Shown here: positions 6,289 through 20,000 of the stretch, one piece after another | Position numbering within the stretch: position 1 is the first letter of the stretch | Layout: every line of letters begins with the position of its first letter | Program-made: the position numbers and the translations under genes | The notes under the pieces: generated by a model | The model's database searches: none | Told to the model about the DNA's origin: nothing | What the model saw: only the letters and a program-made list of their open reading frames with translations | Virus record (IMG/VR): IMGVR_UViG_3300045391_004154 | From: an uncultured virus (IMG/VR IMGVR_UViG_3300045391_004154) | Lineage: Duplodnaviria; Heunggongvirae; Uroviricota; Caudoviricetes | DNA length: 20,000 nt | Strand: one strand, 5' to 3'

Positions 6289-6436
6289 GTATTTTTTAGG
6301 TTTGTCTTCAGTTTAAAATCTCCGTGCGCGTATACGCGGGCGCGCGGGAGGACGCGGTGGCCTGGGGAGAAGATCAGCAGAGACGAAGTTTTAAGGATTT
6401 GTGGAGAAGGATGCGGGGACATCTGGGAGGCGATGC

Positions 6437-6943
6437 ATGAAGCGATGGTACGTGGCGAGAACCCAACCGGGTCTCGGGATCATCGCGGAGCGTGAGCTGC
6501 AAAAGAGCTACGGCGATAGGCCGGCATTTCAAACGCTGCTGATAATGGATGGAAAGGGGCGATCGGTATTCGGGCCATATATCTTCATTGAGATTGATCT
6601 TGACGAGGATTATTGGGAGCCAATCAATTCAGTGCGAGGAGTGAGCCGGCTTCTGCCCATCGGCACTGCCACCCCCCTGCCACTTCCAGAAACGTTCATG
6701 CGGGAATTGCGAAAGCGGCTGGGTAGCGGGGATTTTGATGAGCGGGCCGCGGCGGAATTGGTCTATGCCTACTCGCCGCAGGAGCCGGCGCTGGTGACTT
6801 CGGGACCGTGGGAGGGTCATGTTGGCAATTTTGTTCGACGAAAGAAAGGATTTATAAACCTTTCTCTGGTACTGTTCAACCGTCCATTCGAAATTCCAGT
6901 TCCGGCCCACCAGGTCCGACCCGCGTCGCCCAAAGCAGCTTGA
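6437..6943 (+). CDS. NusG/RfaH-family transcription antitermination factor
   Basis: ATG at 6437 with RBS GGGAGG. NGN-domain features: WYVARTQPG, VFGPYIFI, WEPINSVRGVSRLL, PLPLPE. KOW-like C-terminus VTSGPWEGHVG...LVLFNR. Confidence 0.88.
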   Translation: MKRWYVARTQPGLGIIAERELQKSYGDRPAFQTLLIMDGKGRSVFGPYIFIEIDLDEDYWEPINSVRGVSRLLPIGTATPLPLPETFMRELRKRLGSGDFDERAAAELVYAYSPQEPALVTSGPWEGHVGNFVRRKKGFINLSLVLFNRPFEIPVPAHQVRPASPKAA

Positions 6944-6996: not shown

Positions 6997-7485
6997 ATGG
7001 CCGGCAAAGCAGTAGCAAAAACAAATGGTCACGGCGGCGCCCGCCCGAATGCGGGCCGAAAGCCGGGTGGCCTGGGTGAGAAGGCTCGGGCCTATGCGGC
7101 GGAAGCGGCTGAGGAGGGCGTTCGCCCCATCGATGTGATGCTCGGCAATATGCGCTATTACCATGAGCGTGCCGTTGACTTCGACAAGAAGTTGGAAGCT
7201 ATCGCCGAGACCATGACGGCGGAGCAGATCGTCAAGGGCGGTGAAGAGGTCATGAACGTTTTGAAGCTCGTCGCCAAGATCGGCGAGTTTCGCATGAAGG
7301 CGCAACAGTGCGCCGTGGATGCGGCACCCTATGTTCATCCGCGCTTGACCGCGATCGCGGTGAAGGTGGACAATGGCGATTCCCAGAAGCCGCTGTTGAC
7401 CTTGACCGAGCAGAAGACGGCGCAGCAGGCGGCGGACGCCTACGCGAGCATGCTAGCCGGCACCTATCGTGAAACTGCAGTATAA
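6997..7485 (+). CDS. terS: Terminase small subunit (putative)
   Basis: HGGARPNAGRKPG and AAPYVHPRL motifs. It lies directly upstream of, and overlaps, TerL. Confidence 0.8.
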   Translation: MAGKAVAKTNGHGGARPNAGRKPGGLGEKARAYAAEAAEEGVRPIDVMLGNMRYYHERAVDFDKKLEAIAETMTAEQIVKGGEEVMNVLKLVAKIGEFRMKAQQCAVDAAPYVHPRLTAIAVKVDNGDSQKPLLTLTEQKTAQQAADAYASMLAGTYRETAV

Positions 7486-9223
7486 GCCGCCCGTAGTTCT
7501 GGGCAAGAGCAGTTGGCCGCCCGATTACATGGCGGTGCACAAATGGCGCCAGCAACAGCTGATGATCTTTCGAAAAGATCAGAAGATGCTTGAGGCAGCG
7601 TTGGCCTACTATGCGATGCCCGAGCACGCAGCCGAGTTCATCTGCCACTGGGTTGACACCTACGACCCGCGCAATGCCGGCTCCAACCTGCCGACGCGCC
7701 TGCCACTGATTCTGTTTGAGAAGCAGGCCGAGCTCGTCGATTTTCTCAATAGTCTGGTCAAGAACCAGCAGAATGGGCTCATCGACAAGAGCCGCGACAT
7801 GGGTGCAACCTGGCTCTGCTGTGCCTACAGCGTGTGGGCCTGGTTGTTCATTCCCGGCGTTTCGATCGGCTGGGGCTCGCGCAAGCAGGAGCTGGTCGAC
7901 AAGCTCGGCGACATGGACAGCATCTTTGAGAAGCTGCGCCAACTCATTCGCGGCTTGCCGCGCGAGTTCTTGCCGCATGGCTTTGCCTACGCGCGCCATC
8001 TGAGCTTTGAGCGGATATTGAATCCCGAGACCAACGCCAGCATCACAGGCGAGGTCGGCGATAACATCGGTCGTGGCGGCCGCAAATCGTTTTACTTCAA
8101 GGATGAGAGCGCCCACTATGAGCACCCCGAGCTCATCGAGGCGGCACTGGGCGACAACACCCGCGTCCAGGTAGACATCTCAACGCCGAATGGCATTGGC
8201 ACCGTCTACGATCGCAAGAAGGAAAGCGCGATCGAGTGGAAGCCGGGTGACAAGATGAAGCCCGGTTTCACGCAGATGCTCGTGATGGACTGGTCACATC
8301 ATCCGGCCAAGACGCAGGCCTGGTATGATGAGCGGCAGGCCAAGATGAAGCGCGAAGGCCTCATCCACATCTTTCGCCAGGAAGTGGACCGCAACCCGGC
8401 GGCCTCGCTCGTCGGCGTCATCATCCCGCCCGAGTGGGTCAACGCCGCGGTGGACGCCCATGTAAAGCTGGGCTTCGGCGCGACTGGCAACCTGGTGGGA
8501 GCACTGGACGTGGCCGATGAGGGTGGTGATCTGAACGCACTGACTCTGCGCAAGGGCGTGATATTGCAGATGGCGGAGGACTTCGCCGGTGATGAGGAGG
8601 GCGTGGGCAAGAGCGCGCGCTATGCCATCGGCGAGCTGCACCAGCGTGGCTGCTTCAACCTGCAATATGATTGCTGCGGCATTGGCGCCGGCGTGAAGAC
8701 CGAGGCCGCCAGGCTGCGCAAGGAGAAGAAGCTGCCGCATGGTTTCCAGGTCATCGCCTGGGATGCGGGCCAGAGCGTGCTGCGGCCCAAGGAGCGCGTG
8801 GTGCCGGGTGACAAGACCTCACCACTGAATGAGGACTTCTACAAGAATTTGAAGGCGCAGGGCTGGTGGGAGTTGCGCCGGCGGTTCGAGAAGACCTTCC
8901 AGATGGTCACCGAGCCGTATATCTACCAGTACAAATTCAACGAGCTCATTTCACTGCCGAGCACGTTGCCGCGGCTGCCGCAGCTCAAGCGTGAGCTCTC
9001 GCAGCCCACGATCAAATATGATGGCGCCATGAGAATCATGGTGGACAAGAAACCAGACGGCGCGAAGTCGCCCAACCTTGGAGATAGCGTAATGATGGAT
9101 TACTTCCCGCTCCAGGGCGCGATGGTCGTCACCGACCAGCACCTGCGCAGCATGGGCCAGCCGACTCCGATGAAGATCAGAGGCGGCCAGTCCCAGCAAG
9201 ATCAGGTATCGCAGTTCCGGTGA
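7469..9223 (+). CDS. terL: Terminase large subunit
   Basis: Walker A KSRDMGATW, Walker B FYFKDESAH, ISTPNG, and nuclease acidic motifs ALDVADEGGD and SPNLGDS. Confidence 0.95.
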   Translation: MKLQYKPPVVLGKSSWPPDYMAVHKWRQQQLMIFRKDQKMLEAALAYYAMPEHAAEFICHWVDTYDPRNAGSNLPTRLPLILFEKQAELVDFLNSLVKNQQNGLIDKSRDMGATWLCCAYSVWAWLFIPGVSIGWGSRKQELVDKLGDMDSIFEKLRQLIRGLPREFLPHGFAYARHLSFERILNPETNASITGEVGDNIGRGGRKSFYFKDESAHYEHPELIEAALGDNTRVQVDISTPNGIGTVYDRKKESAIEWKPGDKMKPGFTQMLVMDWSHHPAKTQAWYDERQAKMKREGLIHIFRQEVDRNPAASLVGVIIPPEWVNAAVDAHVKLGFGATGNLVGALDVADEGGDLNALTLRKGVILQMAEDFAGDEEGVGKSARYAIGELHQRGCFNLQYDCCGIGAGVKTEAARLRKEKKLPHGFQVIAWDAGQSVLRPKERVVPGDKTSPLNEDFYKNLKAQGWWELRRRFEKTFQMVTEPYIYQYKFNELISLPSTLPRLPQLKRELSQPTIKYDGAMRIMVDKKPDGAKSPNLGDSVMMDYFPLQGAMVVTDQHLRSMGQPTPMKIRGGQSQQDQVSQFR

Positions 9224-11277
9224 AGCCCCACAAGCCCGGCGAATATACCCGGCGCAAGCGCCGGCAACCCGCGCCCGCGAAGAAGCGGCCGGCGATCGCC
9301 AAGCATCCAGTGAAGGCCAAGGCCAAGCCGGGACCGCGCCTGCGCGAGACCGGCCTGGGAGCCGACCAGCTTTCGCAGTTCACCGGCATTCAGCGCGAGC
9401 TGAAGAAGCAGGGCCGCAAGGAGCTGAAGGGCAAGCGCCTATTCCGCATCACCGATCAGATGCTGATGAACGCCAAGGGCAGCACGGCCGGCAGCGTGGA
9501 GCTGGCGCGGCGCATCTTTGCGGCCGCGAAGCCATTGCCGACGGTGATCCCAAAGGACAACACCAAGGCCCTGCTGGCCATGGACGAGAACATTTCGCTG
9601 TTCACCGCCTGGGCCGCGCAGAGCATCTACAACGGTGCGTTCCAGCAGGGCGTGACCTTCCTGGGCTATCCATATCTCGCCGAGCTCGCGCAGCGCGGCG
9701 AGTATCGGCGTGTGAGCGAAGTTATCGCCACCGAGATGACGCGCAAGTGGATCGAGGTCAAGGCCCACAGCGCGCAGAAGCTCCAGGTAACGCTGGCCGA
9801 GACGGAGGGCCAGGACACCGAGGAGGAGGACCTCAACGCCGGCGGGCCCGAGGAGGCGGACGAGCTCGAGGGCAATGATCCCAGCTTCCAGTACGATGAC
9901 GAGACGGCCAACGACAAGGCGCCAGTGGCCTGGGCCGACACCGAGCAGCAGGCCGAGCAGATGGCCGCGAGCCTGCAGGCTGAGCCGGCGCAGCAGCAGA
10001 ACGGCGAGGCGCCCACCGATCCCAACGCCAACATCGAGGCGGACGGCGAGGCGGACATTGACGTGGACGGCGCGGTGGCGGAGAGCCAGCCATCAGCACC
10101 GGACAAGACGGCCAAGATCAAGGAGCTGAACGAGGAGCTGGAACGTTTAAACGTCCAGGCCATCTTCAAGAGCATCGCCGAGCAGGATGGCTTCTTTGGC
10201 CGCGCCCATCTCTACATCGACACGGGCCACACCGACAACCTGCCCGAGCTCAAGATGCCCATCGGCGACGGCCAGGACCAGGTGTCAATGGCCAAGCTCC
10301 AGGTCGGCAGCATCAAGGCGCTCAAGACCGTTGAGGCCATCTGGTGCTATCCGGCCAACTACGACAGCTTTGACCCGCTCAAGTCAGACTGGTATCGGCC
10401 GTGCTCCTGGTTCGTCCAGGGCAAGGAAGTTCATTCATCTCGCCTGCTGACCTTCGTCGGGCGCGAGGTGCCGGACATGCTGAAGCCGGCCTACTCGTTC
10501 GGGGGCCTATCGCTCTCGCAGATGATAAAGCCGGTGGTCGACAACTGGCTGAACGTGCGCCAGAGCGTCGCCGATATCATCAAGGCCTTTACGGTTTTCG
10601 TACTGAAGACCAACCTGGCCACGCTGATGATGGAGGATGGCGACCAGGTAACGCGCCGCGCCGATTACTTCAACGCCACGCGCAGTAATCGCGGCGTGAT
10701 GATGGTGGACAAGGAGACGGAGGACTTTGCCAACGTCTCCGCGCCGCTTGGCTCATTGGACAAGCTCCAGGCCCAAGCGCAGGAGCACATCTGCTCGCTG
10801 TCCGGCCTCCCCCTGGTCAAGTACACCGGCATTTCGCCCAGTGGCCTCAACGCCACGAGCGAGTTCGAAATTCAGGTCTTCTACGACTGGGTGCGCGCCT
10901 ATCAGATGTGGTTCTTTGCGCCAAACCTGACGCGGGTATTCCACATGGCCCAGATTAATCTCTGGGGTGCCGTGGACCCGGACCTGTATTACGAGTTCTT
11001 GCCGCTCCAGGAGCTGAGCGAGAAGGATCGCGGCGACATGGAGAAGTCCGAGGCCGATCGCGACAAGGTGCTGATCGATGCCGGCGTGCTCCACGCGGAG
11101 GAAGTCCGCGCGCGGCTGAGCCAGGAAGATTCCGGACCGTATGCCGGCATCGACGTGAACAACGTCCCCGAGCCGCCGATGCCGCCGGGTGGTGAGGACC
11201 CGTTTGGCCGCGAGGAGGGCTTCGACGAGGAAGGCCCGGGCGGCAAGGGTGAAATTCCAGAAGGGCTGAATAAATGA
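9220..11277 (+). CDS. Portal protein (DUF1073-type)
   Basis: Follows TerL with a GTGA overlap. Contains FLGYPYLAELAQRGEYR, EMTRKWI, VHSSRLLTF, YSFGGLSLSQ and LVKYTGISPSGLNATSE. Confidence 0.9.
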   Translation: MKPHKPGEYTRRKRRQPAPAKKRPAIAKHPVKAKAKPGPRLRETGLGADQLSQFTGIQRELKKQGRKELKGKRLFRITDQMLMNAKGSTAGSVELARRIFAAAKPLPTVIPKDNTKALLAMDENISLFTAWAAQSIYNGAFQQGVTFLGYPYLAELAQRGEYRRVSEVIATEMTRKWIEVKAHSAQKLQVTLAETEGQDTEEEDLNAGGPEEADELEGNDPSFQYDDETANDKAPVAWADTEQQAEQMAASLQAEPAQQQNGEAPTDPNANIEADGEADIDVDGAVAESQPSAPDKTAKIKELNEELERLNVQAIFKSIAEQDGFFGRAHLYIDTGHTDNLPELKMPIGDGQDQVSMAKLQVGSIKALKTVEAIWCYPANYDSFDPLKSDWYRPCSWFVQGKEVHSSRLLTFVGREVPDMLKPAYSFGGLSLSQMIKPVVDNWLNVRQSVADIIKAFTVFVLKTNLATLMMEDGDQVTRRADYFNATRSNRGVMMVDKETEDFANVSAPLGSLDKLQAQAQEHICSLSGLPLVKYTGISPSGLNATSEFEIQVFYDWVRAYQMWFFAPNLTRVFHMAQINLWGAVDPDLYYEFLPLQELSEKDRGDMEKSEADRDKVLIDAGVLHAEEVRARLSQEDSGPYAGIDVNNVPEPPMPPGGEDPFGREEGFDEEGPGGKGEIPEGLNK

Positions 11278-11807
11278 CCAACATGGTAGCACGCCACCAG
11301 GAGCTGGCGCAGAAGGCCAAGGCCGCCGGCTCTCTCGAGGGCTTTGTCATTCACACTCGGGCGGCGAACGCGCATGCCGTCGCGCACGTCTCACCGTTGC
11401 ACGCCAATGCCGCGGCACTTGCCACGGGCCTGGCCTTTGATGGCTGGAACGAGAGCGATCATCCCCGTTCCGATAACGGGCAGTTTGGCTCGGCGACCAG
11501 CGCGCACAGCTCCATTGGGAGTAAGAGCGAGGCACAGGGTCATGCGCACAAATCGCTGCATGAGTCCGATTTTACCGAAGGTGCTCCAAATCATTTGGGT
11601 CGGCAAGGTAGCCTGCGGAACTATCACGGCAAGCACAAGGGCGAGGGCGCAACCGCCAGTCGCCTGAGCGTTGAGCCAGGGGGTGAGTGGAGTCATCATG
11701 AGCAGTACACGGCGGGAACACCCGACAAGGTGCTGCGCGCGGGTAAGAACCATGAGGACCTGGCGGCTTATTTAAAGGAGCATGCTGAAAAGCACGCGAA
11801 GAAGTAG
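11274..11807 (+). CDS. Accessory head-module protein carrying LAFD plus the HPR tag (candidate internal capsid protein)
   Basis: 177 aa, ATGA-coupled to the portal. Contains LAFDGWNESDHPRSDNGQFGS followed by one copy of a small alpha/beta module also seen in the ART protein. Confidence 0.75.
   Translation: MTNMVARHQELAQKAKAAGSLEGFVIHTRAANAHAVAHVSPLHANAAALATGLAFDGWNESDHPRSDNGQFGSATSAHSSIGSKSEAQGHAHKSLHESDFTEGAPNHLGRQGSLRNYHGKHKGEGATASRLSVEPGGEWSHHEQYTAGTPDKVLRAGKNHEDLAAYLKEHAEKHAKK
11430..11492 (+). repeat. Dispersed coding repeat, copy 1 (LAFDGWxESxHPRxxNGQFGS)
   Basis: By manual alignment it shares 52/63 nt and 17/21 aa with 15141-15203. Confidence 0.9.
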
Positions 11808-11809
11808 GC

Positions 11810-12622
11810 ATGGTGAAGAACGCCAAGCCCAAGCTCCTCAAGCCGGTTCGGCCCTCCGCGGCCATTGACGCCTGGTACAAGCGCAAGCTGGACCAGATGA
11901 TTGATGAAATGAATGCGTCGATTGCCTTCTGGCTGGAGCGCTCCTACGCCAGCCGCCAGGACCAGATCGTGGCAATGGATGAGCTGCCCGCCAAGCAGCT
12001 CAGTCGCGCGCTGAACAAGCTGCGCCGGCGCTGGCAAAAGAACTTTGATGAGGCGGCGCCCAAGCTGGCGAAGTATTTCACCCAGCAGGTGGACGACCGC
12101 AGCAAGAAGCAGCTGCAGGACATCTTGAAGGAGGCCGGCTTTTCGGTGGAGTTCACGATGACCTCCAAGCAGGCCGACGGCATTCGGGCCAACATCACCG
12201 AGAACGTGTCGCTGATCCGGTCCATCCCGCAGAAGCACTTTACCGACATCGAGGGCATGGTGATGCGCTCGGTCCAGGCCGGCCGCGATCTTCACACGCT
12301 GAGCAAGCAGCTGGAGAAGCAGTACGGCAAGACCAAGAAGCGGGCGGCATTGATTGCTCGCGACCAGAACAACAAGGCTACGGCCTTCTTGACACGCACT
12401 CGCCAGGGCGAGCTCGGCGTGAAGAAGGCCATCTGGGTGCATAGTCACGCCGGAAAGGTGCCGCGGCCGACGCACCTGGCCAACGACGGCAACGCCTACG
12501 ACATCACCAAGGGCTGGTACGACCCCGACGCCAACGGCAAGGGCAACGGCGCCTACATCTTTCCCGGCGAGCTTATCAACTGCCGGTGTATTTCCAGGTC
12601 CATCATTCCAGGGTTTTCATGA
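11810..12622 (+). CDS. Head morphogenesis protein (Mu gpF / SPP1 gp7-like, MuF)
   Basis: ENVSLIRSIP, RAALIARDQNNKA, WVHSHAGKVPRPTH and PGELINCRC. Confidence 0.92.
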   Translation: MVKNAKPKLLKPVRPSAAIDAWYKRKLDQMIDEMNASIAFWLERSYASRQDQIVAMDELPAKQLSRALNKLRRRWQKNFDEAAPKLAKYFTQQVDDRSKKQLQDILKEAGFSVEFTMTSKQADGIRANITENVSLIRSIPQKHFTDIEGMVMRSVQAGRDLHTLSKQLEKQYGKTKKRAALIARDQNNKATAFLTRTRQGELGVKKAIWVHSHAGKVPRPTHLANDGNAYDITKGWYDPDANGKGNGAYIFPGELINCRCISRSIIPGFS

Positions 12623-12813
12623 GCACGTTGAAACTGGACGCCAACGACACGCAGTTTGTTGCGCTTGCCACCTCGCTCGGCTTCACCGAGATGGAGGGCA
12701 GATACCTGGTGCGCGGCAAGCCGCTCAGTGCGGATGAGACCGAGCGGGTCCGCGATGCGCTGCAGGGCGGCATGTTTAAACTCTACCACGCCGAGGTGAG
12801 GGGTAGCGCATGA
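12619..12813 (+). CDS. Hypothetical protein (64 aa)
   Basis: ATGA overlaps at both ends; begins MSTLKLDAND. Confidence 0.65.
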   Translation: MSTLKLDANDTQFVALATSLGFTEMEGRYLVRGKPLSADETERVRDALQGGMFKLYHAEVRGSA

Positions 12814-13439
12814 GACCGCGCGAACAGATACTGAACTTCTTCAAGCAGTATCCCACGCGCCGGCCGGTCTCGCGCGTTGCGCTCTCGGGTGTCCTGAACA
12901 TCGCCTACCCCACGCTGGACGTGGTGCTGGAGCAGCTCAAGAGCGAGAACATGTTGGAGCAGACCAGCTGCAACGAGTGGCGGCCGACGCTGGCCTTTGT
13001 TCGCCTGGAGCTCGCCAAGCGCGAGGTGGCGGACGAGCATGCGGTGATGGTGATCACCAAAACCGCCGAGCGTCGGGCCAAGGCCGACAAGGTACGGTCG
13101 GAGAAGCTGGCCAAGCGCGAGGCCGCAATGCAGCAGCGCCTGCTGGAGCGCCTGCAGCGGGAAACGCAGCGCGCCAAGGAGCGCGAGCAGAACCGCCTGG
13201 TGCGGATGGCGGAGCGGGCGGATAAGGCGATGATCAAGCGCCTGGAGAACATTCTGGACGAGCGGCCCGTCCCCGGCAAGATACCGCCGGCCGTTGCCGA
13301 GCCGATCGTGTTCGTGCCCAAGGTGGTTCACTCCACGGACGACGCCTGGGCCCGCGTGCGGGCACGGCACTATTCCAAGCCGGCTTACCTGGGCAGCGAC
13401 TTCGTGCCCAATGAGAAAAAGATGATGGGAAGCCGATGA
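12810..13439 (+). CDS. Putative HTH plus coiled-coil protein
   Basis: N-terminal wHTH-like ILNFFKQ...VSRVALSGVLNIAYPTLDVVLEQLKSENML, then a long R/E/K-rich helix. ATGA-coupled at both ends. Confidence 0.6.
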   Translation: MRPREQILNFFKQYPTRRPVSRVALSGVLNIAYPTLDVVLEQLKSENMLEQTSCNEWRPTLAFVRLELAKREVADEHAVMVITKTAERRAKADKVRSEKLAKREAAMQQRLLERLQRETQRAKEREQNRLVRMAERADKAMIKRLENILDERPVPGKIPPAVAEPIVFVPKVVHSTDDAWARVRARHYSKPAYLGSDFVPNEKKMMGSR

Positions 13440-13741
13440 AACTGGTCAAGTGGCCGACAAAGGCCGAGCACGGGCAGCACACTTACCACTGGTGCCCGGC
13501 CTGCGAAAAGCTGCACGTCCTGCCAGACAGCTGGAGTCGCAGCGGGCCGGATGAGGCGCCGAGCTATTCGCCGAGCTTCCTGCAGTACGACGCCAGACCC
13601 GAGGGTAATTGCCACTATATCATTACCGCGGGCGTCATTCAATTCTGCCCCGATAGCTGGCACAAGCGCGGCGACGCGGTGCCGATGCCGGAGATACCCG
13701 AGACCGTGCTGGCGAAGCTGACCGAGGAGGTTTTCCGGTGA
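13436..13741 (+). CDS. Cys/His metal-binding protein, DUF6527-like, copy 1
   Basis: HWCPACEKLH...W...G...PSYSPSF...CHYIITAGVIQFCPDSWH. Confidence 0.75.
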   Translation: MKLVKWPTKAEHGQHTYHWCPACEKLHVLPDSWSRSGPDEAPSYSPSFLQYDARPEGNCHYIITAGVIQFCPDSWHKRGDAVPMPEIPETVLAKLTEEVFR

Positions 13742-14148
13742 ACGCAATGGAGGAGCCAGTGCAGCGCTTCCAGCGCCTCAGCGCCAAGATGATCCGGCGC
13801 TGCGGCTACCACTTTCCAGTCGGAGCCTGGACGCACGCGCACTGGTGTCCGGCCTGCGAGGAGCTTCACGACTTTGCGGTGGAGCAGCCCTTCACCAACG
13901 GCGCGCGCTGGACGGTGAGCGGCCTGGGCTTTGAGGCGCCGACGCTCAGCCCGAGCATGAACATCACCGTGGGCCCATTTCCCGTCGGCAGCGAGAAGCC
14001 CGGTGCGATGGAGGTCTGCCATTATTTCTTGACCAACGGCAAGCTGCTCTATCTGACTGATTGCACGCACCGGCTTGCCGGCCAAACCGTGGAGCTGCCG
14101 GATATCCCGGCCAGGGCTCTCCAATATATGACCGAGGTCTCACAATGA
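13738..14148 (+). CDS. Cys/His metal-binding protein, DUF6527-like, copy 2
   Basis: HWCPACEELH...W...G...PTLSPSM...CHYFLTNGKLLYLTDCTHRLAGQTVELPDIP. Confidence 0.75.
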   Translation: MNAMEEPVQRFQRLSAKMIRRCGYHFPVGAWTHAHWCPACEELHDFAVEQPFTNGARWTVSGLGFEAPTLSPSMNITVGPFPVGSEKPGAMEVCHYFLTNGKLLYLTDCTHRLAGQTVELPDIPARALQYMTEVSQ

Positions 14149-14453
14149 GCGAACACCTGCGCGAGTTCACGCGCCATCTGATTGACGAACGCGAGGGCGT
14201 GCCGGTACAGGTCGCCACGATCGTAGCCGTCTTCACCAACCTGGGCAACCTCATCGAGGGCAAGACGCCGGCCGAGCAGCGCGCGGCTGCGCGCGAGCTC
14301 CTCAAGGAGGACAAGGGCCTGGCCTTTGACGAGGAGGCCGACACCTTCGACACCATCAACGAGGGTGAGAGCGCCGAGGAGTTTGAGGCGCGCCGCCAGG
14401 CTGGCTTGGATTGGCCCACGATCACCGAGATTGTACGCGCGCCCAATGCCTAG
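14145..14453 (+). CDS. Acidic hypothetical protein (102 aa) with an internal LAFD
   Basis: ATG at 14145 (ATGA overlap, GAGGT RBS); KGLAFDEE with LAFD at 14319-14330. Confidence 0.65.
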   Translation: MSEHLREFTRHLIDEREGVPVQVATIVAVFTNLGNLIEGKTPAEQRAAARELLKEDKGLAFDEEADTFDTINEGESAEEFEARRQAGLDWPTITEIVRAPNA

Positions 14454-15111
14454 CGTCTCGGAAAAGCAGCACAACGCCATGGAGGCGGCCGCGCACGGCC
14501 ACTCCACGCTCGGCATTCCGGCCTCGGTCGGAAAAGAGTTCGTTCAGGCCGATAAGCTCGGTAAGGACGGCTTCACCGATTTGGGCGAGAGTAACGGACC
14601 GAGCAAGCCCCGTGCCGCCGGTGTCCTGGTGCGCGATTCGGATGGCCGCGTGCTGTTCGGTCGCCGCTCGGGCACCGGCGACTACGGTGGCCACTGGGCG
14701 CTGTTCGGTGGTGGCGTGGAGGACGGCGAGACCGATGAGGAAGCGGCGCGCCGCGAGCTCTACGAGGAGAGCGGCTACAAGGCCGATGCTCTCAACCACG
14801 TGCACGAGCACGACTTTGGCGGCTTGAACTTCGCGACCTTCGCGCATGATGTGGAAAAGCCCTTCGCGCCTGCGCTGACGGATGAGCATGACGCGTGGGC
14901 CTGGGCCCATCCGAGCTCGCCGCCATCCCCCCTGCACCCCGGCGTTGCCGCGACGCTCGGCGACGTGGCGCGCGAGCAGGAGCAGAAGTTCACCTGGGGG
15001 CCGGGCATGATGGAGATTGAGCAGCCGGAAAATCCCCAGCCGGCGCCGCCCTACGTCGAGGAGATCGATGACCCGGGCGAGGCCGCGGTAGAGATCGAGA
15101 TTTCGGAATAA
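14446..15111 (+). CDS. Nudix hydrolase with an N-terminal leader
   Basis: Likely start is the ATG at 14446 (MPSVSEKQH). Complete Nudix box GGVEDGETDEEAARRELYEESGY at 14710-14778, then LTDEHDAWAW...PLHPGV. Confidence 0.92.
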   Translation: MPSVSEKQHNAMEAAAHGHSTLGIPASVGKEFVQADKLGKDGFTDLGESNGPSKPRAAGVLVRDSDGRVLFGRRSGTGDYGGHWALFGGGVEDGETDEEAARRELYEESGYKADALNHVHEHDFGGLNFATFAHDVEKPFAPALTDEHDAWAWAHPSSPPSPLHPGVAATLGDVAREQEQKFTWGPGMMEIEQPENPQPAPPYVEEIDDPGEAAVEIEISE

Positions 15112-17132
15112 TGATTCCGAACCTGAATTCACTGGCGCGCCTGGCGTTTGACGGCTGGAGCGAGAGCGAGCATCCTCGCGCCAGCAACGGTCAGTTTGGC
15201 TCGGGCGGCGGCAGCGGCCCCAAGATGCGCGACTACGCGCCCAAAGAGCTGGACTGGGAATATGACGTGGAATACGGCAAGTATTCCAAGCATGCCTTCC
15301 CCGACGCGTTCAAGTCGCGCGACGACTTCCAGCAGAAGTTTGATGCGGCGCCGATGCGCCCGCTCACGGAGGCGGAGTTCAGGGGGCTGGGCAATTCGAT
15401 GGCCGCAGCTGGCATTGGAAAGAATGAGAAGTGGGTGCACGAGAATTTCTCGCATCGCCGCGACAGCAGGCGCATCATCGATGCCCTGAAGAACGGTGAG
15501 ACGGCGCCGCCGATCGTGCTCAAGAGCGGCAAGCGCCTGCGGTTGATGGCGGGACAGACCCGCCTGGCGGCCGGCGCCGCACTCGGAATGAGCGTGCCGG
15601 TGAAGATCATTGACGTGGGACCAGGCGGCCAGGCCAGCGATGAGGCCGACTTCAAGGAGTCGCAGCACCCGCGCGATAAGGATGGCAAGTTCACGAGCGG
15701 TGGCGGCAGCTCCGGCACGGGCCCGAGCAACATGAACAAGCCGGTGCAGGTCTCCACCACGATCGGCCAGCCGCTGAGCAAGGCCGGGTTCAAGAAGGTG
15801 AAGCAGCCAGGCCCGAACGGATCGGTGACGTATTTCCATCCCAGTGGAGTGAAGGTGCACGTGCACCCGGCACCCGAGGGCAAGAAGTATTCCAGCAAGT
15901 GGACGCACGAGGCCGAGGGCCAGCAGACGGCTGGAGAGGGTTCCAAGCTGGAGCAGCTGCTGAGCAAGCTGGTGCAGAAGGCGGAAGCGGCGAAGCCGGC
16001 GACATCAGAGAAAAGCGGAACTCCCGCGGAGCAGGCCGAGAGCGCGCTGAATAAAGCGGGCTGGGAAAATAATAGCTTGCTGTCAACCCCGATGGTTGCC
16101 GCGTATAAAAATCCGAATAGCGACTCCACCTTCTACGTGAACAAGGTGGACGGAAGCTGGTTCAAGGTACTACCGACCGGGAAGACCGTTGGCGGTGAGA
16201 ACCTGGGAGAACTACAGGCAAAGCTGGGGCAGCAAAAAGCTGAACTAGCACCAGCGCCGCTTGACGGTGCGACCGTTGCCGCGGTGAAGGCCTCGGGCGA
16301 GATGCTCAAGGACAAGGGCTACAAGCCGCTGGAGGTGAACGGCACGACCGTCATCTATGAAAAGAATTTGCCCGGCCAGCCTGGAAATGGCAAGGTAAAA
16401 TATGATGCCAAGACCCACGAGTGGGTAGCGCAGACACACGGTCACATGACCAAGGAGGGAAAGGGTTTAAACGAGCTCGACCTCCTTCTAGGTGGCAACG
16501 GCATTCCGGCTGGTGTCAAGAACTCGCAGCAGACCATCCAGACCCAGGCCGAGTTGGCGCAGCAAACGGAAGCGCAGAAGAAGGCACAGGCGGCGCAGAA
16601 GGAACACAATACCCTCAAGAGCACCTATCACAAGCTCGTGGCGCAGGCTCCGCATCCGACCGCGACGCAGCAGAACGCCATCAGCAAGTACAGTGGCAAC
16701 GGGTATCATCAGTGGAACGACAAGCTCCGCCACGATCCGAACTTCGCCAAGAGCGATCCACTGACCAAGCACCTGGACGACTACCTCAACAACGCGGTGT
16801 TTGAGGAGGACTTCACGGTAACGCGCAAGGTCGATGGCGATTATGCCAAAATCCTCAAGAGCATCATCTTCGAGGGCACGAAGTTCATCGATCGCGGCTA
16901 TATCAGCACCAGCGCCACCGGCCAATGGAGCGGCAGCTTCAAGTTTGTCATTAGCATCAAGAAGGGTCAGCGCGGCGCGGCGATCGGCAAGTGGTCGCAC
17001 CATCCGTCCGAGGATGAGGTGCTGCTGCCACGCAATTCGGCCTTCGTCGTCAAGAGCTACGACCACGGCAGCGGCACCGTGCACGTTGATTTGGACCAAA
17101 GCCACTTTGAGGAAATGAAGAAGGCGGCATGA
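15111..17132 (+). CDS. Multidomain effector: tag, ParB/Srx-like domain, second tag, three repeats, VIP2/Alt-like ADP-ribosyltransferase
   Basis: 673 aa. ParB-like PPIVLKSGKRLRLMAGQTRLAA. ART features: AISKYSGNGYHQWNDKLR, catalytic R (VTRK, 16824), STS (16905-16913) and ExE (SEDEVLLPRN, 17010-17018). Confidence 0.9.
   Translation: MIPNLNSLARLAFDGWSESEHPRASNGQFGSGGGSGPKMRDYAPKELDWEYDVEYGKYSKHAFPDAFKSRDDFQQKFDAAPMRPLTEAEFRGLGNSMAAAGIGKNEKWVHENFSHRRDSRRIIDALKNGETAPPIVLKSGKRLRLMAGQTRLAAGAALGMSVPVKIIDVGPGGQASDEADFKESQHPRDKDGKFTSGGGSSGTGPSNMNKPVQVSTTIGQPLSKAGFKKVKQPGPNGSVTYFHPSGVKVHVHPAPEGKKYSSKWTHEAEGQQTAGEGSKLEQLLSKLVQKAEAAKPATSEKSGTPAEQAESALNKAGWENNSLLSTPMVAAYKNPNSDSTFYVNKVDGSWFKVLPTGKTVGGENLGELQAKLGQQKAELAPAPLDGATVAAVKASGEMLKDKGYKPLEVNGTTVIYEKNLPGQPGNGKVKYDAKTHEWVAQTHGHMTKEGKGLNELDLLLGGNGIPAGVKNSQQTIQTQAELAQQTEAQKKAQAAQKEHNTLKSTYHKLVAQAPHPTATQQNAISKYSGNGYHQWNDKLRHDPNFAKSDPLTKHLDDYLNNAVFEEDFTVTRKVDGDYAKILKSIIFEGTKFIDRGYISTSATGQWSGSFKFVISIKKGQRGAAIGKWSHHPSEDEVLLPRNSAFVVKSYDHGSGTVHVDLDQSHFEEMKKAA
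15141..15203 (+). repeat. Dispersed coding repeat, copy 2 (LAFDGWSESEHPRASNGQFGS)
   Basis: Matches 11430-11492. A third, diverged copy (QASDEADFKESQHPRDKDGKFTSGGG) lies at 15630-15707. Confidence 0.9.
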
Positions 17133-18619
17133 TTGAAATACATCTAGTCGACAAGCAGTGCGTGATCATGGGACGCCCGGACCTGGGCGGCTTTCCCAAT
17201 CCCTTTGCCGCGCTCAAGGCGGCGGAGCTGCTCGGCATGGACGAGATGCCGAACCGCACCATCGATCGCGATGGCCGCATGCACGTGCGCACCTCGAAAA
17301 TCTCGAAGGCGAACGTCTGCGACTATTACGGCCGAGAGATTCCGAACTGGGACAAGCTGGGCCTGGACCCGCTGCGCAAGTACCGGCTGCTCCGTCATCC
17401 GGACGAGCTTGCCAAGGCCGCGGCGACCTTCAACAATCTGCCGATCCTCATTCAGCACAAGCACGTGACGGCCGACGATCACCAGCCGCACCTGATCGTG
17501 GGCACGACGGGCTCGGATGCCCGCTATGAGCACCCGTATCTGAAGAACGGCACGAGCTTCTGGGCCGGCGGCGCCATCGATGGCGTCCGCACCGAAGCCA
17601 TGAATGAGCTTTCCAGTTCTTACCATTACCGTCCGGACATGACCCCGGGTGAGTATGAGGGAGAGGCCTACGATGGAGTAATGCGCGATATCGTAGGAAA
17701 CCATGTCGCATTGGTCCGTGATGGACGAGCCGGGGACGACGTCGTCGTCGGCGACAGCAAACCAGAGGAGTATCTTATGAGCAAGACTGTGTTGTCGCGC
17801 ACGGCTCTCTACGCCGCGGGGGCCTTGCAGGCCCTCATCGGTGCGAAGCTGGCGATGGATGAAAAGCCGATTGACACCTCGGCGGTTTTCGAGGGCGTAA
17901 CGGCCAAGAACTTCAACGAGCAGAAGCCGGTGGTCAAAACCCGGCTGATGAAGTTGCTGGAGGGCGTCAAGCTCGCCCAGGACGCCACGCCCGAGGAGCT
18001 CGCCGGCTACGCTGAAAAGATGGAGATGCCGGCGGTGCAGGAGGGCGCAGATGCGGACCCCGAAACCGGCGCGCCGCTCGATCTGGATGCGCTCAAGTCG
18101 GCCATGCACGATCCGGGTGCCTCCGACATTGACGTGGACGAAAAACGGCGCGAGTTTCTCGCAGGCAAGCTCTCCGCCGACGACATGAAGGCCTACGACG
18201 CGTTGGGCGGCGCTCCGTCCGAAGAAGCAGTGGTTGCACCCGAAAAGGAGAAAATCGAGGACATGATCACCAAGCCGGCCATGGATGAGGCCATCAAGTC
18301 TGCTACCGAAACCGCCATCGCTGGCGAGCGTCGGAACCAGCAGGCCATCCACGCCGCTCGCGAGGCGGTCGAGCCCTTTGTCGGCAAGCTCTCGCTGGCA
18401 TTCGACAGTGCACCCGATGTGTACCGCAAGGCCCTGACCATGCTGGGCGTGAAGGACGCGGAGAAAATCCACGCCGACGCGCTGCCGCACGTCCTGGCCT
18501 CGCAGCGCAAGCCGGGAGAGCGCGTCAATCACGGTCGTCCGAGCCTGGCACACGACGCCAGGCCGTCGGAGGACTTCACCACTCGCTTCGCCGGTGCCGC
18601 ACGCATCGGTGTTGCGTAA
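17129..18619 (+). CDS. Prohead protease/scaffold (DUF2213-type)
   Basis: ISKANVCDYYGREIP, RHPDELAKAAATFNNLPILIQH, ELSSSYHY and GNHVALVRDGRAG, followed by a helical/acidic scaffold-like C-terminal half. Confidence 0.9.
   Translation: MIEIHLVDKQCVIMGRPDLGGFPNPFAALKAAELLGMDEMPNRTIDRDGRMHVRTSKISKANVCDYYGREIPNWDKLGLDPLRKYRLLRHPDELAKAAATFNNLPILIQHKHVTADDHQPHLIVGTTGSDARYEHPYLKNGTSFWAGGAIDGVRTEAMNELSSSYHYRPDMTPGEYEGEAYDGVMRDIVGNHVALVRDGRAGDDVVVGDSKPEEYLMSKTVLSRTALYAAGALQALIGAKLAMDEKPIDTSAVFEGVTAKNFNEQKPVVKTRLMKLLEGVKLAQDATPEELAGYAEKMEMPAVQEGADADPETGAPLDLDALKSAMHDPGASDIDVDEKRREFLAGKLSADDMKAYDALGGAPSEEAVVAPEKEKIEDMITKPAMDEAIKSATETAIAGERRNQQAIHAAREAVEPFVGKLSLAFDSAPDVYRKALTMLGVKDAEKIHADALPHVLASQRKPGERVNHGRPSLAHDARPSEDFTTRFAGAARIGVA
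17777..18619 (+). CDS. Possible nested in-frame scaffold protein
   Basis: GAGGAG (17765-17770) lies 6 nt before an in-frame ATG (MSKTVLSR), right after the protease domain. Confidence 0.55.
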   Translation: MSKTVLSRTALYAAGALQALIGAKLAMDEKPIDTSAVFEGVTAKNFNEQKPVVKTRLMKLLEGVKLAQDATPEELAGYAEKMEMPAVQEGADADPETGAPLDLDALKSAMHDPGASDIDVDEKRREFLAGKLSADDMKAYDALGGAPSEEAVVAPEKEKIEDMITKPAMDEAIKSATETAIAGERRNQQAIHAAREAVEPFVGKLSLAFDSAPDVYRKALTMLGVKDAEKIHADALPHVLASQRKPGERVNHGRPSLAHDARPSEDFTTRFAGAARIGVA

Positions 18620-18646
18620 ACCTCGACACGAAAGGAGATACAACTC

Positions 18647-19618
18647 ATGTCGTTGGGAATTCAAACTCAGGTCGGCGCCGCCAACGTCCCCGCAATTGCG
18701 GGTGACTGGGCCTCCGGCAACCCGCGTGCGTTCTTCGATGCGGGCCCGGGTGGCCTGGTCGCGGGCCTCTCGGGACTTACCGTTGGCGTCTTTGCCTGGG
18801 CGAGCTCCGCGCGCGTCGATGGCGATGGCGCTCCGGCAATCGCCAACAACTTCGGTGCGGGAGTACCCACGGGCATTCTGCATCGTCAGCAGCAGGCCCT
18901 CATCACGACCTTCTTGGCCGATGCCTCGATGGTCGTTCCCTCCGGCATCCAGGTGGCGCTCTGCACCGCCGGTGATATCTGGGTGAAGAACGATGGCGCC
19001 ACGCAGGCGCTGCCGGGCCAGAAGGCCTATGCGAACCTCACGACCGGCAAGATCAACTTTGCCGCGACCGGGGCCGCAACGGCTGGCGCCACTTCTTCGG
19101 CGTCCACCATCGCTGCTGCAACCAGTTCCACGACTGGCTCCATCAACAACAACGTGCTGACCATCACGGCCGTGGGCTCGGGTACCGTTTACCCCGGCAC
19201 GACCATCAGCGGCACGGGCGTGGCGACCGGCACCAAGATCGTGTCGCAGCTCACCCCCCTGCTCTCGGGCGAAGCGCTGGGCGGCATTGGCCGTTACGCG
19301 GTGTCGATCCCCGAGCAGTCGGTTGCTTCCACGACCATCAGCGGCACCTATGGCCTGCTGACCGTGGGCGGCACCGTTGCGGGCACCTTCGCCGTCGGTC
19401 AGGCTCTCGCCGCGACCGGCTCGGTGGTGGCGGGCACGACCATCACGGCACTGGGCACTGGCGTCGGTGGCGCCGGCACCTATGTCGTGGACAACAACAC
19501 GGTGGTTGCCTCCCAGGCCATCAACGTGCTGGCGGTCAACGTCGAAACCCGGTGGTACGCGGTCAGCTCCGGCCTTGCCGGTGAGCTGGTCAAGATCACC
19601 TCGCATCCGGTCGGCTAA
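18647..19618 (+). CDS. Head decoration / minor capsid protein with inserted beta-rich repeats
   Basis: RBS AAAGGAG; lies between the protease and MCP genes. Contains AGDWASGNPR, GLTVGVFAW, GILHRQQQALIT, GDIWVKN and GELVKIT. Confidence 0.8.
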   Translation: MSLGIQTQVGAANVPAIAGDWASGNPRAFFDAGPGGLVAGLSGLTVGVFAWASSARVDGDGAPAIANNFGAGVPTGILHRQQQALITTFLADASMVVPSGIQVALCTAGDIWVKNDGATQALPGQKAYANLTTGKINFAATGAATAGATSSASTIAAATSSTTGSINNNVLTITAVGSGTVYPGTTISGTGVATGTKIVSQLTPLLSGEALGGIGRYAVSIPEQSVASTTISGTYGLLTVGGTVAGTFAVGQALAATGSVVAGTTITALGTGVGGAGTYVVDNNTVVASQAINVLAVNVETRWYAVSSGLAGELVKITSHPVG

Positions 19619-19645
19619 CGGCCACTCGAAAGGAGCATGAAACAA

Positions 19646-20000
19646 ATGAACTTGATTGAAGCACAAGCCCTGTTCGAGTCGGATCGTCCGCACCTCGAAG
19701 AACTGGGCATCAGCCTGCCGGCGGTGATGTCGTACCTGCCGACCGGTGCCAAGAAGAACTGGACCATCGCGTTCGATGCCCAGCCCAGCCTGACAACGGA
19801 CCCGAACTCCGCCGTGCCGGCGATGCTCACCACGATGATCGATCCCGACGTCATCAAGGTGCTGTTCTCGCCGACCAAGGCCGCCGAGATTCTCGGTGAA
19901 AAGCGCAAGGGTACCTGGCTGGATGACGTTATCATGTTCCCGGTCACCGAAGACACCGGCGAGGTTTCCTCGTACGATGACTTCGCGGAGAACGGGCGCA
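19646..20000 (+). CDS. Major capsid protein (DUF2184-type), 5' part only
   Basis: Not in the ORF track. RBS AAAGGAG is 10 nt before the ATG at 19646. MNLIEAQ...WTIAFDAQPSLTTDPNSAVPAMLTTMIDPDVIKVLFSPTKAAEILGEKRKGTW...GEVSSYDDF, open to the window end. Confidence 0.88.
   Translation, partial: MNLIEAQALFESDRPHLEELGISLPAVMSYLPTGAKKNWTIAFDAQPSLTTDPNSAVPAMLTTMIDPDVIKVLFSPTKAAEILGEKRKGTWLDDVIMFPVTEDTGEVSSYDDFAENGR

What the first reader, a model, noticed from the sequence alone, without database searches (positions are those of the whole stretch)
11430..15707. Protein-level conserved tag [WF]xESxHPRxxxGxFxS in three places
Copies: LAFDGWNESDHPRSDNGQFGS (11430-11492), LAFDGWSESEHPRASNGQFGS (15141-15203) and QASDEADFKESQHPRDKDGKFTSGGG (15630-15707). 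Copies 1 and 2 differ at 11 of 63 nt, five of which are synonymous third-position changes. Similarity ends abruptly at the motif edges, and each copy is followed by a Gly/Ser-rich linker and then a globular domain. This looks like a portable peptide module under protein-level selection. It could also act as a recombination point for swapping cargo domains.
Basis: partly seen in the sequence, partly recalled or inferred. Interest (0 to 1): 0.8.

Follow-up and report, generated by a model that had tools for sequence, protein, structure and literature searches.

The report
Leader motif of phage capsid cargo
A short, very strongly conserved peptide ([F/W]xExxHPRxxxGx[F/W] plus a glycine-rich tether) sits in front of the effector domains that many tailed phages carry in their heads; it seems undescribed, and what reads it is still unknown.

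Summary
Three in-frame copies of [ED]SxHPRxxxGxF lie at the stated places, against 0.003 expected in shuffles. They sit in two genes of a Pam3/E217-like phage head module: a 177-aa protein just after the portal, and a 673-aa protein with a ParB-like and an ADP-ribosyltransferase domain.

The motif is not local. A 34-column profile finds 3,336 protein clusters among 1.84 billion representatives, many of them giant multi-domain proteins with 2-20 copies. Selection acts on the protein: all synonymous codons are used and GC runs from 34 to 75%.

It lies between domains (1 of 206 copies falls inside a Pfam match). It is often at the extreme N-terminus of a gene and never near the C-terminus. It follows portal, MuF or protease anchors and precedes very diverse effector domains.

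AlphaFold2 predicts a small autonomous hairpin outside the neighbouring domain.

My best reading is a leader or handling tag for each capsid-delivered effector cassette. A proteolytic processing site is the main rival. The function is inferred, not shown. I found no Pfam model or paper describing the motif.

The parts
11430..11492 (+). Motif copy 1 (core ESDHPRSDNGQF at 11451-11486), residues 53-73 of the 177-aa protein
15141..15203 (+). Motif copy 2 (core at 15162-15197), residues 11-31 of the 673-aa protein, so at its extreme N-terminus; followed by the tether GSGGGSGP
15630..15707 (+). Motif copy 3 (core at 15657-15692), residues 174-199 of the 673-aa protein, between the ParB-like domain and the rest; followed by TSGGGSSGTG
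11274..11807 (+). 177-aa gene whose start overlaps the portal stop. It has no family and no homologue of similar length. In related phages a motif-plus-cargo stretch is fused to the portal's C-terminus and so occupies the same position after the portal
   Evidence: portal fusions
15111..17132 (+). 673-aa multi-domain (polyvalent-type) protein: motif, ParB/sulfiredoxin-like domain (about nt 15228-15620), motif, about 270 unexplained residues, then an ADP-ribosyltransferase domain (PF03496, about nt 16635-17066)
9220..11277 (+). Portal protein (PF06381), one of the head anchors to which motif-led cargo is fused in other phages
11810..12622 (+). MuF-type head morphogenesis protein (PF04233), a separate gene here. 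In fused forms the motif follows 17-51 residues after the end of the MuF match
14446..15111 (+). Nudix hydrolase gene; its stop overlaps the start of the 673-aa gene. It has no HPR motif
17129..18619 (+). DUF2213 protein (PHROG name: head maturation protease) with a long C-terminal part; fused to motif-led cargo in other phages
18647..19999 (+). Cement / minor capsid protein (XM1 gp53-like, 18647-19618) and the start of the major head protein (19637-19999)

Best explanation
The motif is a self-contained element of about 20 residues. Its consensus, from 484 copies, is [F/W]-x-E-x-x-H-P-R-[D/A]-x-[D/N]-G-[K/R/Q]-[F/W], followed by a Gly/Ser tether. It marks the N-terminal boundary of each effector cassette in proteins that tailed phages package in the head and are thought to inject with the DNA.

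The unit is motif + flexible tether + cargo domain. It occurs in three settings: as the very start of a free cargo gene (copy 2 here), behind a head anchor (portal, MuF or prohead protease), or repeated up to 20 times in giant polyvalent proteins.

I propose that the predicted small hairpin (a turn at E-x-x-H and an Arg...Phe cross-strand bridge) is a docking knob. Some conserved step in the handling of virion cargo would read it: loading or retention in the procapsid, or exit through the portal and tail. Its conserved sequence would also give a shared junction at which cassettes can be exchanged between genes and phages.

Shown: the anatomy, the distribution, protein-level selection, and the position relative to domains and gene ends. 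Inferred: that the motif is a recognition tag, and what recognises it.
For: - Real and non-random: 3 copies against 0.003 expected.
- Widespread: 3,336 clusters with E <= 1e-3 and 299 with E <= 1e-10 among 1.84e9 representatives. In 169 proteins examined there were 547 copies, 1-19 per protein by my own scan (the table lists 20 matched stretches for the largest protein), with a median spacing of 256 aa.
- Strong conservation: R and G 100% (fixed by the anchoring regex, so by construction), P 98%, H 92%, E 90%, aromatic at +8 99%, F/W at -5 89%, then G at about 60% of positions +11 to +13.
- Independent check: 100 instances were fetched from viral contigs with a DNA pattern that did not specify position -5 or the tail. 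All 100 have F or W at -5, and a mean of 4.0 of 6 G/S follow.
- Protein-level selection.
- Asymmetry: the first copy lies within 50 aa of the N-terminus in 60 of 169 proteins. The last copy is never within 30 aa of the C-terminus and is within 100 aa in only 6 of 169.
- Same asymmetry on viral ORFs with real stops: in 30 of 81 the motif starts within 40 aa of the upstream in-frame stop, and in 0 of 81 a stop follows within 30 aa.
- Between domains: 1 of 206 copies lies inside a Pfam match. 59 of 66 cargo domains have a copy upstream. 18 of 18 portals have none upstream and one downstream.
- Head context: 27 of 71 top proteins carry a portal (three families), MuF or a prohead protease (three families). 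Named phages have the motif in C-terminal extensions of the portal.
- No match in 72,556 plasmids.
- Autonomous mini-fold: pLDDT 88 over the core, using 102 aligned instances; not packed on the neighbouring domain.
- The motif is kept where encapsidation is already guaranteed by fusion, and also where nothing lies upstream to be cut off (P0011 starts MAKFEEEKHPR, then a ParB-like domain, then DUF2213). This argues for a role tied to the cargo itself.
Against: - No partner is identified.
- The motif occurs with at least four portal families (PF06381, PF04860, PF06074, PF05133) and with DUF2213, S78 and S78_2 proteases. A single sequence-specific head partner is therefore hard to name.
- A MuF-like gene was detected in only 6 of 15 loci that lacked my first-pass hits.
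- The motif is not obligatory. Bcep781 (portal-Nudix), the PB1-like phage LBL3 and Amjad_SA have related head modules without it. Only about 4 of 67 long DUF2213 fusion proteins (mostly Nudix-DUF2213) have it. 7 of 66 cargo domains, mostly Nudix and InPase, have none upstream.
- The core is strongly acidic, so DNA binding is unlikely.
- The uniform conservation of every copy within a multi-copy protein fits a processing site at least as well as a docking tag.
Confidence: 0.4

Rival explanations
1. Proteolytic processing site. The motif, or the flexible stretch beside it, is where the prohead protease or another peptidase cuts polyvalent and anchor-fused proteins into single domains, so that they can leave the capsid through the tail.
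For: - Copies lie at the boundaries between domains.
- Portal-fused cargo could not leave the head without being cut. This is inference.
- Prohead proteases are fused into the same polypeptides.
- Every copy in a multi-copy protein is intact.
- The [F/W]-x-E part resembles the hydrophobic-x-Glu sites of T4-type prohead proteases (recalled, not tested).
- Iyer et al. 2017 propose processing of polyvalent proteins by peptidases (PMC5512222, passages read).
Against: - The motif is common at the extreme N-terminus of genes, where nothing needs removing, for example 3 residues from the start in P0011.
- It is never left at a C-terminus, as a cut after it would predict for split genes.
- It occurs with unrelated protease families, DUF2213, S78 and S78_2, which are unlikely to share a 15-residue specificity.
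- The window's DUF2213 protein and the start of its major head protein, the usual protease substrates, contain no motif-like sequence.
- Most long DUF2213 fusion proteins (mostly Nudix-DUF2213) lack it.
- None of the 71 top proteins had an MPTase-PolyVal match at E <= 1e-5.
Confidence: 0.25
2. Host-side function. The tag acts after injection. It could bring each effector to a conserved bacterial factor, or its invariant Arg could be a modification or regulatory site, for example for the co-packaged arginine ADP-ribosyltransferases.
For: - The motif is conserved across phages of Pseudomonadota, Campylobacterota and Bacillota hosts despite different head modules. That fits a universal host partner better than a phage-specific one.
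- ART domains are the most common cargo, in 27 of 71 top proteins.
- Arg is invariant in the motif alignments (A1; A5).
Against: - Effectors with unrelated targets (nucleotide hydrolases, topoisomerase, nucleases, kinases) all carry the same tag.
- Many motif-bearing proteins and phages have no ART in the same polypeptide (44 of 71).
- No known bacterial hub-binding motif resembles it (recalled).
Confidence: 0.12
3. Structural spacer or metal-binding knuckle. A small hairpin, possibly with Glu/His/Asp ligands, that only insulates neighbouring domains during folding or storage, with no partner.
For: - An autonomous local fold is predicted.
- E, H, D and D/N are conserved at positions -3, 0, +3 and +5.
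- The [D/N]-G turn is typical of tight hairpins (own knowledge).
Against: - A spacer would not be needed at the extreme N-terminus.
- A spacer would not be so directional, always before a domain and never after the last one.
- Near-invariance of seven positions across GC 34-75% is more than linkers usually show.
Confidence: 0.1
4. Recombination junction only. The conserved stretch is kept because it supplies homology for swapping cargo cassettes, with no role for the peptide itself.
For: - An 83% identical 69-nt direct repeat lies between two genes 3.7 kb apart, with unrelated flanks.
- Near-identical motif flavours occur in otherwise unrelated proteins: P0023-P0028 compared with copy 3.
- The ParB-like cassette is found joined to ART, DUF2213 or portal.
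Against: Conservation is at the amino-acid level, not the DNA level. Identity at third positions is 38% against 85% at positions 1+2, and Arg is written with six codons. A DNA-level signal would show the opposite.
Confidence: 0.05

Closest known systems
Phage-type polyvalent proteins and portal/MuF-effector fusions (Iyer, Burroughs, Anand, de Souza, Aravind 2017, PMC5512222; passages read)
   Same: The protein class and context are the same: multi-domain effectors (ART, Nudix, InPase, PBECR, RelA/SpoT, zeta toxin, ParB-like) encoded beside the portal/terminase module, often fused to portal or MuF, and thought to be packaged and injected.
   Different: The main text of that paper has no occurrence of 'HPR', 'linker', 'interdomain' or 'glycine'. 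Of its 14 uses of 'motif', I read only those among the 12 of 23 matched passages shown to me, and none of those concerns this element. Its supplementary files were not seen. The recurring leader motif is an added layer of organisation, not one of its catalogued domains.
MuF polymorphic toxins (Jamet et al. 2017, PMC5576092, term search only; Bxa paper PMC11699363, passages)
   Same: A head-morphogenesis domain is thought to carry variable C-terminal toxins into the capsid. In fused relatives the motif sits 17-51 residues after the end of the MuF match (5 of 5).
   Different: In the window MuF is a separate gene with no toxin fused to it. The motif also follows portals and proteases and heads free genes. 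Neither paper mentions such a motif: 0 hits for 'motif' and 'linker', and 0 for 'linker'.
T4 capsid targeting sequence of internal proteins and Alt (own knowledge; only the listing of PMC3012670 was seen)
   Same: A short N-terminal peptide in front of head-packaged, injected proteins, including an ADP-ribosyltransferase.
   Different: The T4 sequence has no sequence likeness to this motif, is used once per protein, and is removed by the T4 prohead protease. Here the element is repeated internally, is followed by a Gly tether, and occurs across several head-module types. Cleavage is unknown.
Pre-toxin delimiter motifs of polymorphic toxins, such as VENN of CdiA and DPxGL of Rhs (own knowledge)
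   Same: A short conserved motif marks the border between a conserved carrier and a variable toxin, and is a likely cassette-exchange point.
   Different: Those belong to secreted bacterial toxins, occur once per protein, and (for Rhs) are part of a larger autoproteolytic fold. This motif is phage-head associated, repeated, and autonomous.
Encapsulin cargo-loading peptides (own knowledge)
   Same: A short tag on a flexible tether that docks cargo inside an HK97-fold shell.
   Different: Those are usually C-terminal, have a different sequence, and have a partner known from solved structures. No partner is known here.

Membership tests
Phage-type polyvalent protein (Iyer et al. 2017) | Two or more unrelated effector-type domains in one polypeptide | tested here: met
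   The 673-aa protein has a ParB/sulfiredoxin-like domain (AF2 pLDDT >90; weak Foldseek hits at E about 0.01) and an ART domain (PF03496, E 3.6e-16).
Phage-type polyvalent protein (Iyer et al. 2017) | Encoded within a portal/terminase head-packaging module | tested here: met
   It is flanked by terminase, portal, MuF, DUF2213, cement and major head genes.
Phage-type polyvalent protein (Iyer et al. 2017) | Packaged in the virion and delivered to the host | not testable with these tools
   Inferred only, from context and from portal, MuF and protease fusions in relatives.
MuF polymorphic toxin (Jamet et al. 2017) | N-terminal MuF domain fused to a C-terminal toxin domain | tested here: not met
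   The window's MuF (11810-12622, 270 aa) ends right after its Pfam match, and the ART lies in another gene. Relatives P0012 and P0013 start with a region ending in the Cys-x-Cys signature that closes the MuF alignment; no Pfam MuF match was recorded for them.
T4-type capsid targeting sequence | N-terminal peptide of about 10 residues ending in a hydrophobic-x-Glu site cut by the prohead protease | tested here: inconclusive
   An N-terminal position is frequent and [F/W]-x-E is present. The element is longer, is also internal, and cleavage cannot be tested here.
Any Pfam, NCBIfam or solved-structure family covering the motif | A curated model or solved chain that aligns to the motif itself | tested here: not met
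   There was no Pfam or NCBIfam hit on the 177-aa protein. Only 1 of 206 motif copies lies under a Pfam match, at the edge of an ART alignment. No PDB chain matched the profile at E <= 10. Only multi-domain PHROG profiles (phrog_30637, phrog_15528) include it, at inter-domain positions.

The most novel reading that the evidence does not exclude
The motif is a general, portable cargo signal of tailed phages. It would be a hairpin tag that, with its glycine tether, is enough to have a protein loaded into the procapsid and/or passed out through the portal and tail. It would be shared across phages with different portal, protease and capsid families, and so read by a conserved structural feature of the head or ejection pathway that has not been recognised.
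Probability: 0.25. Interest if true: 0.85.

Novelty: new variant of a known kind. Interest (0 to 1): 0.62.

Why it matters
Phage-packaged effectors (polyvalent proteins, MuF toxins, portal fusions) are known. How their domains are delimited, loaded, separated and delivered is not.

A single 15-20 residue element sits in front of many of these domains. It is conserved from Faecalibacterium and Helicobacter phages to Pseudomonas and Burkholderia phages. That makes the question testable: one peptide to mutate, to fuse to a reporter, or to use as bait.

The motif is also a practical marker. A simple profile finds thousands of candidate injected effectors and shows where each cassette begins, including many domains with no known family (15 of 71 top proteins had no Pfam match).

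Tried and rejected
- Complex prediction of DUF2213 protein + MuF + 34-aa motif peptide, each with its own alignment: 'no answer', score 0.00 in both runs, controls not run. This counts neither for nor against binding.
- The window's whole genome is not held.
- No nucleotide match (window 7000-20000) and no protein match (the 673-aa protein) in the phage collection. No relative of the 673-aa protein in genome contigs.
I used a back-translated DNA pattern instead.
- The 177-aa protein has no homologue of 97-310 aa. The Atlas gave only weak leads for it and for residues 205-480 of the 673-aa protein.
- PDB sequence searches with the N-terminal 220 residues and with the motif profile gave nothing.
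- I looked for a single co-occurring head gene. DUF2213 was rejected as an obligate partner: the motif also occurs with S78-type proteases and other portal families. MuF could not be shown to be universal.
- Self-cleavage through a Ser/Thr nucleophile after the aromatic residue was considered and rejected, because positions +9 and +10 are not conserved.
- An EF-hand-like loop or a Ni-type S-x-H site were considered and not supported, because the needed positions vary.
- tblastn hits in an Achromobacter primase gene and a Salmonella phage phosphatase gene lie on the strand opposite the annotated genes and were dropped as chance. The other four Achromobacter rows and the two Xanthomonas rows were not inspected.
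- Literature: searches for HPRxxxG-type strings, for motif pentapeptides, for HPR + MuF + ADP-ribosyltransferase and for DUF2213 found nothing relevant.
- Earlier findings of this scan held nothing on this motif.

Full report
**1. The observation**

The three peptides are in the sequence exactly as reported. The pattern [ED]S.HPR...G.F occurs three times in the six-frame translation, at 11451-11486, 15162-15197 and 15657-15692, all on the + strand. In 300 base shuffles of the window it occurs 0.0033 times per shuffle.

Copies 1 and 2 differ at 11 of 63 nt. Five of those are synonymous, by my reading of the positions printed. The flanks are at chance identity, 14/60 and 17/60. This pair is the first-listed (D1) of the direct-repeat families reported in 11200-17200: 69 nt, 83% identical.

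**2. The setting**

The window is a phage or prophage with a Pam3/E217-type structural region. The minus strand holds Pam3 gp34-like and gp33-like proteins and an SNF2 helicase. A NusG-like protein follows on the plus strand.

The plus strand then carries the head module:
- large terminase, 7469-9223
- portal PF06381, 9220-11277
- a 177-aa protein with motif copy 1, 11274-11807
- MuF, 11810-12622
- a 209-aa protein and two DUF6527 proteins
- a 102-aa ORF
- a Nudix hydrolase, 14446-15111
- the 673-aa protein with copies 2 and 3, 15111-17132
- a DUF2213 'head maturation protease', 17129-18619
- a cement-like protein
- the start of the major head protein

The 673-aa protein reads: motif, ParB/sulfiredoxin-like domain, motif, about 270 unexplained residues, ADP-ribosyltransferase.

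**3. The motif is not part of a fold**

An AlphaFold2 model of residues 1-220, built with 17 aligned sequences, gives the ParB-like core pLDDT above 90. Both motifs lie outside it at pLDDT 54-68. Each shows the same local shape: a short turn at E-x-x-H and a bridge between the Arg of HPR and the final Phe.

A 43-residue stretch around copy 3, folded with 102 aligned instances, gives the same shape. pLDDT is 88 over the core and 57-74 in the flanks.

**4. Distribution**

Homologues of the first 210 residues number 25 proteins, the window's own included. They join the same ParB-like cassette to ART, portal, DUF2213, Nudix or ART-PolyVal domains.
- 18 of the 25 carry the strict motif.
- Five more carry variant forms at the same places, for example F-D-P-D-Q-D-R-D-x-x-G-x-W.
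- Two carry none.

A profile of 19 instances was run against 1.84 billion representative proteins. It found 3,336 with E <= 1e-3, 299 with E <= 1e-10 and 2 with E <= 1e-30. The best hits are proteins of up to 7,334 residues with up to 20 matched stretches.

In the 169 proteins I could scan there are 547 instances. Of 503 that I could anchor, 484 have the canonical spacing. The consensus is [F/W] at -5, E at -3 (90%), H (92%), P (98%), R (100%), [D/A], x, [D/N], G (100%), [K/R/Q], [F/W] (99%), then [G/T/A/S]-S-G-G-G. The anchoring regex itself requires R and G, so those two figures are by construction.

As an independent test, I scanned viral contigs with a back-translated DNA pattern that left position -5 and the tail unspecified. 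All 100 distinct instances have F or W at -5 and a G/S-rich tail.

In those 100 instances every synonymous codon is used. Identity is 85% at codon positions 1+2 and 38% at position 3, and GC ranges from 34 to 75%. Selection is therefore on the peptide.

**5. Named phages**

The motif lies in C-terminal extensions of the portal in four groups of named phages:
- Burkholderia phages vB_E436, phiE131 and phiE058: portal, motif, PBECR3 nuclease
- Pseudomonas phage Orimi01 and its relatives: portal, motif, ART
- Faecalibacterium phage FP_Brigit: portal, Nudix, motif, an unknown domain
- a Helicobacter prophage

The Burkholderia phages phiE131 and phiE058 were seen only in the listing.

No match was found in 72,556 plasmid records.

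The motif is not universal in this head-module type. Bcep781 (portal-Nudix), the PB1-like phage LBL3 and Amjad_SA lack it. Of 67 long DUF2213 fusion proteins (mostly Nudix-DUF2213), about 4 have it.

**6. Position rules**

In 71 of the best proteins scanned with Pfam (the 33 and 38 best-scoring of the 146 top proteins that I could scan):
- 27 carry a head anchor. That is 18 portals of three families, 5 MuF, and 4 prohead proteases of three families.
- 27 carry an ART.
- 15 have no Pfam match at all.
- Other cargo includes Nudix, InPase, topoisomerase IB, zeta toxin, SET, RelA/SpoT, Acb1, GNAT, C39 peptidase, a LigT-like domain and a PI3K-like domain.

Of 206 motif copies in the Pfam-annotated proteins, one overlaps a Pfam match. 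59 of 66 cargo domains have a copy upstream. None of 18 portals has one upstream and all 18 have one downstream. After MuF the motif follows within 17-51 residues in 5 of 5 cases.

The first copy is within 50 residues of the N-terminus in 60 of 169 proteins. The last copy is never within 30 residues of the C-terminus and is within 100 residues in only 6 of 169.

On viral ORFs bounded by real stop codons:
- in 30 of 81 the motif starts within 40 residues of the upstream in-frame stop
- in 0 of 81 the gene ends within 30 residues after the motif

The unit is therefore motif + tether + domain, read from the N-terminal side.

**7. What it does**

Two simple ideas each fail on part of the data.

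A pure encapsidation tag should be dispensable where cargo is already fused to portal, MuF or protease. Yet it is kept there.

A pure cut site between domains should not sit three to fifteen residues from the start of a gene. It is also unlikely to serve the unrelated protease families DUF2213, S78 and S78_2 alike.

MuF-like genes could be detected in only some loci.

My best reading, at about 0.4, is a leader or handling tag that belongs to each cargo cassette. A conserved step of cargo loading, retention or exit would read it, and cassette exchange at the shared junction would be a by-product.

The rivals are:
- processing site, about 0.25
- host-side role, including modification of the invariant Arg, about 0.12
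- spacer or metal-binding knuckle, about 0.1
- DNA-level recombination signal as the sole cause, about 0.05 (argues against it)

**8. Comparison with what is known**

The protein class is the phage-type polyvalent protein and the portal/MuF-effector fusion of Iyer et al. 2017 (PMC5512222; passages read). It overlaps the MuF toxins of Jamet et al. 2017 (PMC5576092; term search only) and of the Bxa study (PMC11699363; passages).

None of the text I saw mentions this motif. No Pfam or NCBIfam model and no PDB chain covers it. String searches of the paper library found nothing relevant. Supplementary files of these papers were not seen.

In function it most resembles three things I know from memory, not from a call here: the T4 capsid targeting sequence, the delimiter motifs of polymorphic toxins, and encapsulin cargo-loading peptides. 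It is not a sequence member of any of them.

**9. Verdict**

The mechanism is open but directly testable.

Noticed in passing
window 13436-13741 and 13738-14148 (+): Two tandem paralogous DUF6527 genes (101 and 136 aa) sit inside the head module between MuF and the Nudix gene. They share an HWCPACE[K/E]LH cysteine motif and a 31-nt repeat (13487-13517 / 13840-13870, 87% identical). Their role is unknown; immunity or regulatory partners of the neighbouring effectors is one possibility.
   Followed up: partly
window 14145-14453 (+): A likely unannotated 102-aa gene whose start overlaps the stop of the second DUF6527 gene and which ends just past the probable Nudix start. It contains K-G-L-A-F-D-E-E, whose DNA (14312-14329) is 94% identical to the stretch just before motif copy 1 (11423-11440), but it has no HPR core. 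No Pfam match.
   Followed up: partly
window 14446-14560 (+), N-terminus of the Nudix protein: The Nudix protein begins with a conserved peptide (MPSVSEKQHNAMEAAAHG..GIP..VGKEF) that matches a 58-position PHROG profile of its own (phrog_16759). The same peptide stands at the N-terminus of homologue P0018, directly before a motif copy. It may be a second kind of cargo leader.
   Followed up: no
window 15720-16550 (+), residues 205-480 of the 673-aa protein: About 270 residues between motif copy 3 and the ART domain have no Pfam, PHROG or Atlas explanation. By eye they look like three similar beta-rich segments, each starting K-A-G-[F/W] or D-K-G-Y.
   Followed up: partly
window 6401-6943 (+): A NusG-like protein (PF02357, E 1.4e-9) is encoded just upstream of the terminase genes. 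It is a possible late-operon antitermination factor.
   Followed up: no
P0010, P0013, P0014, P0042 (related proteins): A sister form of the motif, [F/Y]-[D/N]-P-x-Q-[P/D]-R-D-x-x-G-x-W, sometimes with an insertion before the Gly, occupies the same inter-domain positions. It can be mixed with the HPR form within one protein (P0042).
   Followed up: partly
P0046, P0038 (related proteins): Within some proteins the motif and 10-15 flanking residues are repeated almost letter for letter while the domains between them differ. This suggests concerted evolution or recent cassette duplication.
   Followed up: no
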